From NCBI RefSeq assembly GCF_006345805.1, contig NW_021829771.1, forward strand, positions 1 to 5,938: a stretch of 5,938 nucleotides of DNA. The letters run 5' to 3'. Source of the stretch: Octopus sinensis (lineage: Eukaryota). Position 1 is the first letter of the stretch. Each line of letters begins with the position of its first letter. A program made the translations under genes and the position numbers. Under the pieces are notes generated by a model that made no database searches, had not been told where the DNA came from, and saw only the letters and a program-made list of their open reading frames with translations. Positions 412 through 5,577 of the stretch are shown piece by piece.

Positions 412-570
412 GTGGAAGTGCATGGCTCAGTGGTGAGATCGTCAGGCTCACACTCTCGAGATAGTGAGATCGATTCATGGAACGGATCTGTGCACAGTGC
501 AGTCTTTGGTTCCTGTCCAGCCCATGCCAGAAAATAACAGGGATGTTAGATGATGATGACAATGATGATG
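412..570 (+). mobile_element. Internally deleted tRNA-derived SINE remnant (Pol III head plus (GAT)n tail)
   Basis: A-box TGGCTCAGTGG at 423-433. B-box-like GATCGATTC at 468-476 has one mismatch to GTTCRANNC and tRNA-like spacing. The 3' end ccagcccatgccag...gatgttagatgatgatgacaatgatgatg finishes in a GAT repeat. Resemblance to octopus SINEs is from recall, not a search. Confidence 0.7.
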
Positions 571-755
571 TTATTTACTTTGTTAATGATGACAATCAAG
601 GAAAATCCGTTGTTTCCAATTCGTCGCCTGGCTGCAAACATTTAAAGACCTTACGTTGAGTGTAAACATGAAGAAAAAATTTGGTCTACCTTAGGTTAGA
701 GATGGGCGTTAACCACTCACGTTTCATTTATTTAGGAGCTAGAGAAGTCTTCATA

Positions 756-791
756 TGTTGTGTGTGTATGTGCGGCGTGTGTGTGTGTGTG
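756..791. repeat. Imperfect (GT)n microsatellite
   Basis: tgttgtgtgtgtatgtgcggcgtgtgtgtgtgtgtg. Confidence 0.9.
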
Positions 792-795
792 AGTC

Positions 796-983
796 TTCAT
801 GTTTAGGTGTGTCCTTATCCTACGATCGCAGCCTGACACGGTTGTGCCTTTGTTTATGTCTCCAGAAAGCAACTTTCATTGATAGAGGACGGAAGAATAA
901 GGACAGATTACAAAAAAATAATTAATCAGATCCAGTTAATCCGCCGAAAACGCTTCAAGGCGGTGCACAAGCATTGCCAAGTC
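796..983 (+). mobile_element. SINE 3' half, copy 1 of a tandem duplication
   Basis: Aligns colinearly with 1040-1227, including a 34-nt exact match (881-914 = 1124-1157). Ends in cttcaaggcggtgcacaagcattgcc, a variant of the ttcaaggcggtgccccagcatggcc tail I recall from octopus SINEs. Confidence 0.65.
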
Positions 984-1040
984 TGTATGTGTGTGTGTGT
1001 ATGTGTGTGTGTGTATGTGTGTGTGCGTGTGTGTATGTGT
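984..1040. repeat. (GT)n/(GTAT) microsatellite
   Basis: tgtatgtgtgtgtgtgtatgtgtgtgt... read directly. Confidence 0.95.
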
Positions 1041-1253
1041 TCATGTTTATGTGTGTCCTTATCCTATGATCGCAGCCTAGCACGGTGTTGCTTTGTTTAT
1101 GTCTCTATAAAGCAAAGTTCAGCGATAGAGGACGGAAGAATAAGGACAGATTACAAATACATAAATAAACAGGTAAAGCTAACCCGACGGAGACGCTTCA
1201 AGGCGGTGCCCCAGCATGGCCACAATCCAATGAATGAAAGAAATCCAAGGAAA
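1040..1253 (+). mobile_element. SINE 3' half, copy 2, with A-rich 3' end
   Basis: Paralog of 796-983. Contains cttcaaggcggtgccccagcatggccacaatccaatgaatgaaag followed by a purine-rich tail. Confidence 0.7.
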
Positions 1254-1313: not shown

Positions 1314-1351
1314 TCCAGGTTTCCGAGAGAGAGAAGAGAAGTAGAATGATT

Positions 1352-1370
1352 TATATATATATATAATATA
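1352..1370. repeat. (TA)n tract at the left flank of the PLE
   Basis: tatatatatatataatata. Confidence 0.85.
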
Positions 1371-1390
1371 CAAAAAGCAATAAAGATTCA

Positions 1391-1494
1391 TTAATTTAAA
1401 TGAAAGTAAGAAAGTTAATTTAATGAAAGTTAATTTAATGAAAGTTAATTTAATGAAAGTTAATTTAAATGAAAGTTAATTTGAAGAAAGTAAA
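1391..1494 (+). repeat. 15-bp tandem repeat (TAATGAAAGTTAATT) at the 5' truncation point of the PLE
   Basis: Three exact units at 1421-1435, 1436-1450 and 1451-1465. A unit with one extra A at 1466-1481. Degenerate units at 1391-1420 and 1482-1494. Confidence 0.95.
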
Positions 1495-1909
1495 CATGGA
1501 AATGAAAGAGATCATGGAAAAGCTAAATTTACGGATAGAACGGAGCCACTTAAACCATGTGAGCCCAGGATCAATCTTAAAGACCACAAAAGAACTTCTT
1601 GGAAAACCCTTCGGTAAGGTTGATCTGTCAACTAGGTCGGACATTGGCCGACTTAGTAAATCTATCTTGGATACTGTTCTCTACCCCCAAAACCCCTCTT
1701 CTCCCCTTAAACCTATGGCTAAGTACCGATGAAGTTCTAAAATGGTTTAACTCTCTAACTAATACTAGTAGTCTGTCCTTTATTCAGTTCGATATTAATA
1801 GTTATTACTCTTAGCATTTCCCCTATCTTACTCAACAAATCACTAATATTTGCCATGAATCGCTCCCTCATATCTAGAGAAGAAATCAATATTGTACTAC
1901 TCTAGCTAG
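1469..1909 (+). pseudogene. Frameshifted N-terminal part of the PLE reverse transcriptase
   Basis: Stitching frames gives KVNMEMKEIMEKLNLRIE / PLKPCEPRINLKDHK (1546-1590) / ENPSVRLIC / TRSDIGRLSKSILDTVL / LNLWLSTDEVLKWFNSLTNTSSLSFIQFDINSYYS (first catalytic Asp at 1791-1793) / SISPILLNKSLIFAMNRSLISREEINIVL / LARK. The listed ORFs 1469..1732 and 1599..1814 are pieces of this. Confidence 0.88.
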
Positions 1910-1978
1910 GAAACATTTATAGAATTTGAAGATAAATTATGGACTAGAGCAGATACACCAAATTTTTTTGATATACCA

Positions 1979-3625
1979 ATGGGTTCCAGTGATTCGGCTG
2001 AGGTAACCAACCTAGTAGGCGCATATCTATTAAAATGCATAAGCAAGGATATCCCAGAATTACAGGGGGGTCTATATAGGGACGATGCTCTGTTTGTTAT
2101 CCCTAGTAATAATAAATCTGTTATAGAAAGGATTAGAAAGAAAATTAATAAGTTCTTTAGGGATTTCAACCTCAGTATAACGTATGAACCGGGCACTAAA
2201 ATAGTTAATTTCCTAGATACTACGCTAGACCTCAACTCCAAACTACATTACCCATTTAGAAAGGAAGGTGAAATCACGAATTACGTAAATAAATTATCAA
2301 ATCATCCCCCAAATATTATAGAATCTCTAGTAAGAAATATTTCATTAAGAATTTCAAAATTATCATCCAATAAGGATATTTTTAACTCCCATTCTGAGCA
2401 TTATAATGCGGCGTTAACTAAGGCTGGATACAACCAAAAGATTACATTCGTTGATAAGGGGAACTCACGTATTCCTAATAATGAAGTTATCAATAATCAC
2501 GTAAGCAGCAATAAAGACCAAGCCCGAAATAAAAGTAGAATTAAACTAACGGTAAACGCTAATATAGCGTATAAGCCCAACAATTCAAATAGAAACATTG
2601 ACCAGAACATAGGTAACTCGGATAGTATTGAAGTAGATAAACCTAAGATGCACACAAATAAAAATAAAAATAATGGTAGCAAATACAATAACTCCGGTGA
2701 GATGAATAGTAATAATTCTACGAACCCTAAATTTAATAAAAAAAATATATTATGGCTGAATATTCCTTTCAACTGTGCGATACAATCGGATATACAGAAC
2801 AAATTCAAAGTGATTCTGGAAAAAAATTTCCCTATCTCTCATAGATATCATAGAATTATTTCTAGGAAAACAGTTAGGATTTCTTATTCAACCCTCCCAA
2901 ATATGTCCACTTTAATAGCTAAGATTAATAATAACAACATTAAACTAGCCAGGAAAGATAGAAATATAAATAATAATAATAATAATAATAATAATATCAG
3001 CATGAATTCCAATAGCAATTGTAATAATACTACCAACAATAAAAGCAACAATAGTAACTATCAAAACATAGATGAAATTAGTAACCACAGAATGACTAAT
3101 AACATTAACATTAATAGTAATAATAGCAATGCCGATATTAGTAGAAGTAATAATGTTAATAATAGAAATAATAGAAATAGGGAAAATAGAGAAAATAAGG
3201 AGAATGAAAATATTAGTGATATCTATAACAACAATATGCAGTCGGATAAAAAGACTAGCAATAATATTAGCATTACCAATAATATAAGAAATCATGGTAG
3301 GACTTTAGATCTAAATAATGAAACAGAAGGATCAAGAAATAATAGCAATACTTTAGATATCAGCACCAACTATAGAAATGATAATCAAAATAATAGGAAC
3401 CTAAAACATCTACCCAAGAATAATCCAAAGCCTGAAGGTGTTCCTCCTGTGTGTAAGTGTAGAATAAAATCAAAATGCCCGGCACCTGGTCTATGTGGAG
3501 AAAATAATGTAATCTATAAATGTACCATATCCACGGAGAATAACAAATATCATTACATTGGATGTACAATTAATTTTTTAGCTAGAGTTAGAAATCACAT
3601 CTCGACTTTTAAATTAACGTCATAA
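1979..3625 (+). CDS. PLE polyprotein core: RT palm/thumb, Asn-rich linkers, Cys-rich motif and start of GIY-YIG endonuclease (fragment of a disrupted ORF)
   Basis: MGSSDSAEVTNLVG (1979-), GLYRDD (YRDD 2075-2086), NFLD (2207-2218), SNHPP (2297-2311), NILWLNIPF (2744-2770), SYSTLPNM (2882-2905), CKCR-x4-CP-x4-C (3452-3496), VIY (3509-3517), YIG (3554-3562), then R..NH. The frame is open from 1910, so the Met at 1979 is the internal MGS motif and not a true start. Confidence 0.93.
   Translation: MGSSDSAEVTNLVGAYLLKCISKDIPELQGGLYRDDALFVIPSNNKSVIERIRKKINKFFRDFNLSITYEPGTKIVNFLDTTLDLNSKLHYPFRKEGEITNYVNKLSNHPPNIIESLVRNISLRISKLSSNKDIFNSHSEHYNAALTKAGYNQKITFVDKGNSRIPNNEVINNHVSSNKDQARNKSRIKLTVNANIAYKPNNSNRNIDQNIGNSDSIEVDKPKMHTNKNKNNGSKYNNSGEMNSNNSTNPKFNKKNILWLNIPFNCAIQSDIQNKFKVILEKNFPISHRYHRIISRKTVRISYSTLPNMSTLIAKINNNNIKLARKDRNINNNNNNNNNISMNSNSNCNNTTNNKSNNSNYQNIDEISNHRMTNNININSNNSNADISRSNNVNNRNNRNRENRENKENENISDIYNNNMQSDKKTSNNISITNNIRNHGRTLDLNNETEGSRNNSNTLDISTNYRNDNQNNRNLKHLPKNNPKPEGVPPVCKCRIKSKCPAPGLCGENNVIYKCTISTENNKYHYIGCTINFLARVRNHISTFKLTS
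2969..2995 (+). repeat. (AAT)9 encoding poly-Asn
   Basis: Nine consecutive AAT codons in frame. Confidence 0.95.
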
Positions 3626-3872
3626 AGCTGGTACCCCCACAACTTTCAAACAAAATCTGGGAACTCAAAATAATAATAAAATTATAAAAAATTAGGGAAT
3701 AGTTAAGAGAGCAATTCCGTATAAAAATAGTAGGGTTGGTTTCCAACTATGCTCCATGGAGACATATGAAATTCTAAAGCATAGAAAACATGGAAACCTA
3801 TTGAATAACCATATCGAACTAGGTCAAGTTTGTGTCCACGCTAAATTGAAGACTTTAAAATATTTTAAATGA
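3618..3872 (+). pseudogene. Frameshifted C-terminal half of the GIY-YIG endonuclease
   Basis: QLSNKIWELK at 3640-3669, then in another frame IVKRAIPYKNSRVGFQLCSMETYEILKHRKHGNLLNNHIELGQVCVHAKLKTLKYFK-TGA (3699-3872). This contains the expected LC..E, LLN...EL and C.H motifs. Confidence 0.85.
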
Positions 3873-4613
3873 TTAGAATATTCGTAACTAGATAGATTGA
3901 TATAACCTGTTTTCTACTGGTATAGCACTGCTTTAAGTAGATAAATAAGAGTTCTCACACTACAGTTATCTTTGTCCTATATCTGCATCAGTTTTTTGAG
4001 AACAGGGAAATGAATAGCACTTATTCGCTGCTTAATTGAGGCTTTATTTAATTTCAAACTCACAATTTTTAAATTTTTTAAATTCTTAATTTTAAATCTT
4101 AATTGTAATTTTTAATTTTAGTTCCCAACTTAATCTAATTTAATTAGCATAACTCTAATTAATTAGAATGAGTTACTATAGACCCATAATTCTACTTCAA
4201 AATTAAATAAATGAGACTATTCCCTCGGTGATAATATGATTATCTTCATTATGATAGACAATCCCCTAACACCTTTTAAATGATCTTCTAAGATTTGACC
4301 TGTAGTCCGTCATGTATGAATAATAAGGCAACTCCTTAAGACAATAAAATGAATAAATTAAATAAGTAAATTTTAATGACTTTTGATAAGATTATACCTA
4401 GTTTTCCCTAATGTATTTTCTGGTGATTTTAGCATCGACCCCGAAACCCCTAACTGTGTTATCTCTTTAGATTCTCTTTAAATTCATAGCTGGTTTCAAC
4501 AGCAATAAATTAGCTGTTTAACTGGTCAAAGAATAATATTCTCCCCTAATTCCTAGATGCCTGTAAACTAAAACCAACTTGTCGTCTACTAGTTCTTTCT
4601 GTATAACTAGAAA

Positions 4614-4870
4614 CTTTTTTTCTTTTTTTCTTTCTTCTTTCTTCTTTTTTCTTTTTCTTTTTCTTCTTTTTCTCTCCTCCTTTTCTTTCTCTCTTTTTCC
4701 TCCTTCCCTATTTCTTTCTCTTTTCCTCTTTTTTCTTTTCTCTTCTTATTCTCTTTTTCCTTTTCTTTCTCTTTGAACCCCCCTTCCCCCCCTTTTTTGC
4801 TCCTCCTCTTTTATTTTCTCTCTATTTTATTTTCTCTCTTTTCTTCTATTGCCCTTCCCTCTTCTATTCT
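4614..4870. repeat. About 255-nt polypyrimidine (C/T) low-complexity tract
   Basis: Almost only C and T on the + strand (tttc/ttctc units). Confidence 0.95.
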
Positions 4871-5230
4871 ATACACTCTATAGAGCTCTTCAGCCTTAAA
4901 AGTTAAATAGCTACAGCCTCTTAAATAGCAGTAATTTGATTAATATGGCAAATACCTATTCATATAGCAAGATTTGATACCTACCATTGTGTTCAACCAT
5001 TGATAAATTTATCGCCGATGAATATGAAATTCCTTGAAATTACACCTACACCATTGGAAATTGTGCATCTATACAAAGGATTAATTCACCCTCTCTGTAA
5101 TGCTAATAAGCAGGAATTGAAACCCACCTCGTTGTAATGGACAATGGATAAATTTTCCTTTCTGTGAGTATGTAACCCCTCATCATATCTCTGGAAATTC
5201 ATATGTGCACTATGGATCGGGTCACCTTCT

Positions 5231-5303
5231 CTGTGATACTATTAAGACTTTTTTGAAATTCTGTGATGCTATTAAGACTTTTTTGAAATTATGTGATAAG
5301 ACT
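5231..5303 (+). repeat. 30-bp tandem duplication plus a partial third unit
   Basis: ctgtgatactattaagacttttttgaaatt (5231-5260) and ctgtgatgctattaagacttttttgaaatt (5261-5290) differ at one base, followed by atgtgataagact. Confidence 0.95.
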
Positions 5304-5410
5304 GTACATCATCTTTAAAGAACTTTAATGAACTTTTGAAATCTGTTAATTATCTACATTACTTCATGAGTATAGCCTCAACAACTAGGATGTCTAAGGA
5401 CTCACATGTA

Positions 5411-5501
5411 TTTTAAGCTGATGAGTACGGGACACGTTTATATGCTGTAATTTTTGGCAACTTTTAATAAAACCTCCTTGTATGAAACGATCGTACTAAA
5501 A
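5411..5501 (+). ncRNA. Type I hammerhead ribozyme at the PLE 3' end
   Basis: Core CUGAUGA 5418-5424. Stem II GUACGGG 5425-5431 pairs with CUUGUAU 5477-5483. GAAA 5484-5487. Palindromic stem III ACGAUCGU 5487-5494. Cleavage triplet GUA 5493-5495. Stem I UUUUAAG 5411-5417 pairs with CUAAAA 5496-5501 with one bulged A. Confidence 0.85.
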
Positions 5502-5531
5502 ACCTATCCATTCTTGTTGCTTCATTCTCGC

Positions 5532-5532
<1 letters not shown>

Positions 5533-5577
<45 letters not shown>
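5533..5577. repeat. (TA)n tract at the right boundary of the PLE
   Basis: About 22 TA units with one interruption. Confidence 0.97.

What the first reader, a model, noticed from the sequence alone, without database searches (positions are those of the whole stretch)
5411..5501. Hammerhead ribozyme with palindromic minimal stem III and a very long stem II/loop II
Seen: all core nucleotides are intact (CUGAUGA, GAAA, GUA), with predicted cleavage after A5495, 37 nt before the (TA)n. Stem III is the self-complementary 8-mer ACGAUCGU. The stem II region spans 59 nt (5425-5483) and can extend by GUUUAU/AUAAAAC and UGCUG/UGGCA pairings. Established: PLE terminal repeats carry minimal type I hammerheads whose palindromic stem III favours cleavage as dimers, usually with a short stem II. 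Inference: this is a long-stem-II variant whose insert may provide tertiary contacts or a protein-binding site. With only one copy here, dimeric cleavage would need a second transcript.
Basis: partly seen in the sequence, partly recalled or inferred. Interest (0 to 1): 0.75.

Follow-up and report, generated by a model that had tools for sequence, protein, structure and literature searches.

The report
Long-armed hammerhead holding poly(A) signal
This is a damaged copy of a predicted self-cutting RNA (hammerhead ribozyme) at the end of an abundant jumping gene; its second arm is about three times the usual length and carries a likely polyadenylation signal, and it likely cuts only in pairs to release a circular template.

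Summary
The motif is real: a type I hammerhead in the terminal repeat (pLTR) of a Hydra-clade Penelope-like retrotransposon. The "loop II" is a conserved ~60-nt irregular hairpin with compensatory changes across five subfamilies. Stem III stays self-complementary (ACGAUCGU, ACGAUUGU, ACAAUUGU). Long-spacer motifs number 17,448 in this genome (controls 25). Spacers are 10-25 nt in 41 metagenome Hydra loci and 12-26 nt in published ones. This copy is 5'-truncated and has three indels, probably read errors, that would spoil folding. Full-length relatives carry two hammerheads in cis. An A(A/U)UAAA hexamer abuts the cut site in 16 of 29 short-armed relatives. In this lineage it lies inside stem II instead (79 of 83 sequences; none at the old site). 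Insertions read through the cut site: none of 39 starts there. Their two units are nearly identical, as rolling-circle copying predicts; uncleaved redundant RNA is not excluded. Cleavage and polyadenylation are untested. The scan noted long-armed Hydra hammerheads before (this genome and others) and the embedded hexamer once in another genome.

The parts
5411..5417 (+). Stem I 5' strand (UUUUAAG here; UUUUAG in the family, one extra A)
5418..5424 (+). Hammerhead core CUGAUGA
   Evidence: invariant apart from N7 in the alignment
5425..5483 (+). Long stem II: basal helix GUACGGGACA with its 3' partner (first pair G-U; 2 nt missing in this copy), a weak middle helix and an apical hairpin
5445..5459 (+). 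Apical hairpin UGYAA-3 nt-UURCA, conserved in five subfamilies (one extra G in this copy)
   Evidence: (89% of cells paired)
5466..5471 (+). AAUAAA hexamer, 29 nt before the predicted cut; likely polyadenylation signal
   Evidence: function inferred
5484..5495 (+). Core GAAA, palindromic stem III ACGAUCGU, predicted cut after A5495
5496..5501 (+). Stem I 3' strand CUAAAA
5510..5522 (+). Conserved U/GU-rich tract AUUCUUGUUGCUU (possible downstream polyadenylation element or RT-binding site)
   Evidence: weighted conservation 0.92, the highest block measured; function inferred
5532..5577 (+). 3' end of the insertion (about +37 from the cut) and the (TA)n target
1478..3872 (+). 5'-truncated, frameshifted RT + GIY-YIG ORF of a Hydra-clade PLE (CxCX5C linker CKCRIKSKC near 3450-3480)
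3873..5532 (+). Long 3' UTR / pLTR region, with a pyrimidine-rich tract at about 4607-4870
1349..1404 (-). 5' junction: (TA)n followed by a short inverted piece of the element's tail
   Evidence: window 1345-1404 matches the family tail on the opposite strand

Best explanation
This is the hammerhead motif in the terminal repeat of a Hydra-clade Penelope-like retrotransposon, with stem II grown into a conserved 60-nt hairpin, and it likely cuts only when two copies pair through the stem III palindrome. Shown: the element type, the covarying stems, two motifs in cis in full-length copies, and insertions that read through the cut site. Inferred: as a monomer the core UGAU pairs with the palindrome's AUYG and is off. 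In a pLTR-ORF-pLTR transcript the two palindromes would form one 8-bp duplex, probably helped by the element's own protein. Both would cut after GUA, and the 4.6-kb unit would be ligated to a circle that RT copies from +37 or about +160, past the junction, for more than one round. The arm length is mostly a tolerated expansion that must stay paired. In this lineage the arm has also taken over the AAUAAA that relatives keep just 3' of the cut, so polyadenylation and ribozyme cleavage would compete for the same spot. The window's copy is a dead, 5'-truncated insertion; as written it is predicted not to fold actively.
For: Hydra motifs are present in a natural intact 947-aa copy (criteria). Covariation: 86.9% of 498 cells paired, 12 of 25 pairs changed on both sides, slid controls 33-52%. 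The inner palindrome pair is G-C in 12, A-U in 4, G-U in 3 and broken in 1 of 20. Energies: monomer minima of 4 of 5 family copies pair UGAU with the palindrome. By rough arithmetic (two stems I+II folds plus the duplex, against two monomer minima) the dimer is favoured by 2.6-4.6 kcal/mol in those four and disfavoured by about 8 in the window copy. Two motifs in cis in 21 of 23 loci. None of 39 copies with a whole 5' UTR starts within 20 nt of the cut; 33 run on upstream for 48 to over 1,380 nt. In 20 more-than-unit insertions the upstream part differs from its own downstream unit by 0-1.2%, against medians of 2.4-7.1% to other insertions. Hexamer position. Precedent: dimer-dependent, weak cleavage of PLE hammerheads and the circle model (PMC4209133); protein-assisted cleavage (PMC11167929).
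Against: No cleavage, circle or poly(A) data exist for this family. No genomic footprint of cleavage was found; this fits a circle but also no cleavage at all. In the one PLE tested in vitro, hammerhead mutants still inserted and uncleaved RNA was the main template (PMC11167929). The own unit was strictly the closest in only 13 of 20 insertions (3 ties, 4 slightly worse). The first stem II pair is G-C in 3 of 20 sequences and not a standard pair in 8, unlike the G10.1-C11.1 pair that PMC4209133 lists as conserved. The count of pairs changed on both sides did not beat the shuffle (152 of 500), and the sequences are related. The hexamer lies inside stem II in only 7 of 25 long-armed clusters, so it cannot explain long arms in general. 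Its predicted pairing varies from 0.15 to 0.84.
Confidence: 0.58

Rival explanations
1. The hammerhead cuts, but not to make the template. Insertions are copied from uncleaved, terminally redundant or tandem RNA (with RT jumping), and cleavage only trims read-through RNA or limits expression.
For: Every insertion spans the cut site and none starts at it. In vitro, the Anolis PLE uses unprocessed RNA (PMC11167929). Near-identical units would also result from a template jump on one molecule.
Against: The upstream extensions have continuous lengths up to 3.3 kb of a 4.6-kb unit. A circle gives this simply; a linear donor needs a near-complete tandem or a jump.
Confidence: 0.25
2. The long arm is a specific binding or tertiary-contact module (for example for the element's own RT-endonuclease protein), and the AAUAAA is part of that site rather than a polyadenylation signal.
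For: The apical hairpin and hexamer are more conserved in sequence (0.86) than stems I and II (0.69-0.75). The PAc hammerhead needs its protein (PMC11167929). Insertions end 37-160 nt past the cut, beyond where a polyadenylation signal would end the RNA.
Against: Arm sequence is not shared among 25 long-armed clusters, and lengths run from 13 to 76 nt, with growth by local duplication. The hexamer alternates between AAUAAA and AUUAAA, the two commonest signals (recalled), at both positions.
Confidence: 0.12
3. The motif is a catalytically dead relic, kept only as a folded landmark for RT initiation.
For: Non-canonical first pair of stem II; no Rfam match; some Hydra-type families in this genome show no standard core under my patterns.
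Against: All core positions except N7 are invariant while the stems covary, and the palindrome is kept through different letters in many families.
Confidence: 0.05

Closest known systems
Hammerheads of Hydra-clade PLEs, including Hydra-1_Obim (Craig et al. 2021, PMC8557442; seen: passages, section 11, supplement part 2 with File S2)
   Same: Type I hammerhead near the 3' end, short self-complementary stem III, first stem II pair often U-U or G-U, C-terminal endonuclease with RWK, DKT and CxCX5C, (TA)n target.
   Different: The 26 Hydra rows of File S2 have spacers of 12-26 nt (counted by eye); here 54-62 nt with an apical hairpin and an internal AAUAAA. The ORF is 947 aa with Asn-rich insertions and the unit is 4.6 kb, against under 3 kb.
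Minimal dimeric hammerheads of metazoan PLEs (Cervera and De la Pena 2014, PMC4209133; seen: main text parts 1-2 of 4, no supplements)
   Same: Located in pLTRs, palindromic helix III, predicted dimer activity, most copies single and truncated; circle model proposed there.
   Different: Helix II there is 6-8 bp at most with a conserved G10.1-C11.1 pair; here the arm has about 24 pairs and mostly a G-U or U-U first pair.
PAc hammerhead of the Anolis Poseidon PLE (PMC11167929; seen: passages and section 3 part 2)
   Same: RT starts at two sites downstream of the hammerhead, which define a tail.
   Different: Different clade; the hammerhead overlaps the start codon there; the tail here is about 120 nt, not 30-40.
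PLE-X1_sMoe and PLE-X1_sTam hammerheads of spike mosses (File S2 of PMC8557442)
   Same: PLE hammerheads with an enlarged stem/loop II (35-nt loop on a 9-bp stem in sMoe), marked there as deviating: a printed precedent for a long arm.
   Different: Endonuclease-free plant elements that target rDNA; no family-wide covariation or hexamer is described in what I saw.

Membership tests
Type I hammerhead ribozyme | Core CUGANGA, GAAA and NUH intact and in type I order | tested here: met
Type I hammerhead ribozyme | Stems I and II close the core and are conserved as pairs | tested here: met
   for the family (88% and 80% of cells paired; 4 and 5 pairs changed on both sides); damaged in the window copy
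Type I hammerhead ribozyme | G10.1-C11.1 closing pair (typical, not obligatory) | tested here: not met
   G-U 7, G-C 3, A-U 2, other 8 of 20; U-U is common in published Hydra rows
Type I hammerhead ribozyme | Self-cleavage at NUH | not testable with these tools
   no assay; contig-only runs cannot show ends
Rfam hammerhead families | Match to a covariance model | tested here: not met
   no hammerhead family at E up to 5 and 1
Dimeric PLE hammerheads | Short palindromic stem III kept self-complementary | tested here: met
Dimeric PLE hammerheads | Two copies in cis in pLTR-ORF-pLTR elements | tested here: met
   (21 of 23 loci); not in the window copy
Hydra-clade PLE | RT followed by C-terminal GIY-YIG endonuclease in one ORF | tested here: met
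   (natural 947-aa frame in L074); homologues at 31-38% identity; Pfam scan of the window fragment was blank
Hydra-clade PLE | RWK motif, DKT, CxCX5C linker, CxxC and CxH near the C-terminus | tested here: met
   RIRWK, ADKTG, CKCRIKSKC, CQLC, CVH; criteria
Hydra-clade PLE | Insertion into (TA)n | tested here: met
Hydra-clade PLE | Placement in an RT tree with the published Hydra reference proteins | not tested
   the trees held only loci fetched here
Canonical polyadenylation signal | A(A/U)UAAA conserved, with a downstream U/GU-rich tract | tested here: met
Canonical polyadenylation signal | Poly(A) tails 10-30 nt downstream | tested here: inconclusive
   contigs only; no A-run among the loose ends shown, 7 not shown

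The most novel reading that the evidence does not exclude
Hydra-clade PLEs couple a polyadenylation signal to their hammerhead. In this lineage the signal has moved from just behind the cut into the enlarged stem II, making one RNA element a switch between a polyadenylated mRNA (arm open, ribozyme destroyed) and a dimer-cleaved circular template that is copied by rolling-circle reverse transcription.
Probability: 0.25. Interest if true: 0.75.

Novelty: new variant of a known kind. Interest (0 to 1): 0.5.

Why it matters
The job of PLE hammerheads is an open question. A young family with intact ORFs, two motifs in cis and more-than-unit insertions whose halves match gives a direct test of the circle model. 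Over 17,000 long-armed motifs in one genome escape Rfam and the published spacer limit, so genomic hammerhead counts are too low. The hexamer next to the cut in short-armed relatives, and its shift into the arm here, suggests a link between ribozyme cleavage and 3'-end formation. I did not find that link in the passages I read.

Tried and rejected
Rfam found no hammerhead. Pfam was blank for the window ORF fragment. Naiad was considered from the (TA)n target and rejected, because the endonuclease is C-terminal. Sequencing runs: no RNA holder listed. The 8 layings on 7 runs were contigs of guessed RNA and showed no joints and no piled ends; they say nothing on expression, cleavage or circles. 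A pile-up of 5' ends at the cut was sought and not found. An upstream ACUCA/UGAGU hairpin that hides the core appears in subfamily A folds but not consistently elsewhere, so I dropped it as a conserved switch. The hexamer as the general cause of long arms was rejected (7 of 25 clusters). One exclusive clade of long arms was rejected by a quick tree (AU p 0.022). That group was named after I had seen the endonuclease-only tree, three rows are under half filled, and one gain with later shortening is not excluded. Lunse et al. 2017 and Arkhipova et al. 2017 were not held, so their alignments may already hold long-armed examples. The supplements of PMC4209133 were not read, and only part 2 of 59 (plus a term search) of the PMC8557442 supplement.

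Full report
Observation. The window shows CTGATGA at 5418-5424, a 59-nt spacer, GAAA at 5484-5487, the palindrome ACGATCGT and GTA ending at 5495, then 37 nt and a (TA)n. Alone, 5400-5515 folds no better than shuffles, and Rfam has no hammerhead match. The genome settles chance: CTGAWGA-N45-75-GAAACRATYGT occurs 9,246 times against 9 for the reversed control.

The element. The window holds a frameshifted RT and GIY-YIG ORF, 5'-truncated at about 1478, with a short inverted tail piece at the 5' junction. The DNA search gave 1,357 first-look candidates, of which 40 were scored. A natural copy (L074) has an open 947-aa frame with RWK, DKT, CxCX5C, CxxC and CxH. These are the features that define the Hydra clade in PMC8557442 section 11. 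The host is likely an octopus: one hit carries that label.

This copy is damaged. Against its family it has an extra A in stem I, an extra G in the apical hairpin and 2 nt missing in stem II. Stems I+II fold at -3.5 kcal/mol against -11.6. Over 2.37 kb of ORF the window has 13-14 short indels against full-length matches, while a chromosome-anchored control copy has 0-1 against relatives differing by up to 79 substitutions. Uncorrected read errors in a small contig are the likely cause (inference). Either way the copy has no 5' end and one hammerhead.

Structure. I aligned 20 of 40 distinct sequences, leaving out 18 near-duplicates of subfamily A and 2 from other families. For 25 named pairs in stem I, basal stem II, the apical hairpin and stem III, 86.9% of 498 cells pair and 12 pairs change on both sides; slid controls give 33-52%. 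Percent paired and the covariation score beat 500 of 500 shuffles, but the count of doubly changed pairs did not (152 of 500 reached it), and relatedness inflates such tests. The middle helix was not scored because its register differs among subfamilies. Stem III reads ACGAUCGU, ACGAUUGU or ACAAUUGU: always self-complementary, with one broken case in 20. The first stem II pair is G-U, U-U or G-C, as in published Hydra rows.

How unusual is the arm. The 26 Hydra rows of File S2 have spacers of 12-26 nt, counted by eye; a spike-moss PLE there has a 35-nt loop and is the one printed precedent I saw. Of 77 metagenome loci with related ORFs, 41 gave a hammerhead under one pattern, with spacers of 10-25 nt. 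Looser scans gave 48, up to 29 nt (one search looked at 27 of the remaining loci). None had 45 or more; many of the rest have short flanks. In this genome two long patterns give 8,202 and 9,246 matches (controls 16 and 9), against 8,328 for a broader short pattern (control 71). A third long pattern gave 579 against 28. Among 218 motifs in fetched loci, 37 clusters span 13-93 nt, 25 of them 45 nt or more; the two longest are probably chance. Arm sequence is not shared between families, and local duplications lengthen it. A quick tree puts long arms in two lineages (AU p 0.022), with the caveats listed under Tried and rejected. I read the length as a tolerated expansion under selection to stay paired.

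The hexamer. In the metagenome set, A(A/T)TAAA starts 0-12 nt after the cut in 16 of 29 non-redundant motifs, against 2 of 321 control windows and a shuffle mean of 1.95, maximum 7. These are related, and many fall in one branch. By eye only 3 of the 26 published rows show the strict hexamer there. In the window's lineage it is absent from that site and lies in the 3' arm of stem II: 70 of 74 distinct sequences of subfamilies A-E (7 as AUUAAA) and 9 of 9 of the sister family F, whose arm does not align. Another long-armed group keeps it after the cut in 7 of 10. The hexamer and a downstream U/GU-rich tract are more conserved than the stems (0.86 and 0.92 against 0.69-0.75). That these two hexamers are the commonest polyadenylation signals is recalled knowledge; use in vivo is untested. 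Only 7 of 25 long clusters carry it inside the arm, so it is a trait of this lineage.

Genomic footprint of the template. Insertions end at fixed points, about +37 and about +160 from the cut, so the template extends past the cut. Of 1,012 tail-bearing matches, 30 were examined: 29 end at +159 to +162 and none starts at the cut. All 39 matches that continue into the ORF were examined: 33 extend 48 to over 1,380 nt upstream of the cut, 6 start at +22 to +157, and none is within 20 nt. I fetched 20 of them, chosen for long overlaps, and added 3 earlier loci; 21 of 23 hold two motifs 4.3-4.65 kb apart. I set aside L073, a duplication of two truncated units. In the other 20, the upstream part (147-3,318 nt) differs from its own downstream unit by 0-1.2%, against medians of 2.4-7.1% to other insertions; it is strictly closest in 13, tied in 3 and second in 4. 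This is what copying round a unit-length circle would leave, as proposed in PMC4209133. A template jump or an uncleaved tandem would also do, and PMC11167929 found uncleaved RNA to be the main template in vitro.

Mechanism. Shown: element type, covarying fold, palindrome, paired motifs in cis, read-through insertions, hexamer positions. Inferred: the monomer is off because UGAU pairs with AUYG (minimum-energy folds of 4 of 5 family copies); pairing of two palindromes (-5.8 to -10 kcal/mol) switches both on; cleavage and ligation give a circle; the hexamer in the arm would let polyadenylation compete at about the same site. Confidence is 0.58 for dimer cleavage to a circular template and 0.25 for the full switch.

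Earlier notes. I looked them up after forming the reading. The scan has reported long-armed Hydra hammerheads in this genome and others, and an embedded hexamer in another genome; these are unchecked AI notes and not independent support.

Verdict. A real, conserved variant of a known association: new variant of a known kind, interest 0.5.

Noticed in passing
window 754-1222: Two diverged 243-bp units, each preceded by (TG)n, with a multi-stem fold (z -1.98). 47 matches in the genome, clustered mainly on C27, C29 and small contigs. No Rfam match beyond microsatellite noise; possibly a clustered non-coding RNA family.
   Followed up: partly
window 415-540: Looks like a tRNA-derived SINE head (TGGCTCAGTGG A-box-like, recalled pattern); ARAGORN finds no tRNA.
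   Followed up: partly
window 1410-1491: 15-bp tandem array (5.4 copies) at the 5' inversion junction of the insertion, probably RT slippage.
   Followed up: no
L259, L262, L271, L275 (3' UTR): A Hydra family with core CCGAAGA in place of CUGAAGA and a spacer of about 33 nt.
   Followed up: partly
L256, L258, L260, L264 (3' UTR, about 870 nt): A young Hydra family with open 720-aa frames in which my patterns and Rfam found no hammerhead core; it may lack one or carry another ribozyme form.
   Followed up: partly
L074:4498-7341: The ORF carries two long Asn-rich low-complexity insertions around the thumb and linker (947 aa against about 710 in relatives).
   Followed up: no
L099-L105: Short-armed hammerheads in tandem units of about 558 bp, retrozyme-like arrays.
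   Followed up: no
L276-L305: The optional tail is about 120 nt (ends near +160), longer than the 30-40 bp given for other PLEs (PMC8557442, PMC11167929).
   Followed up: partly
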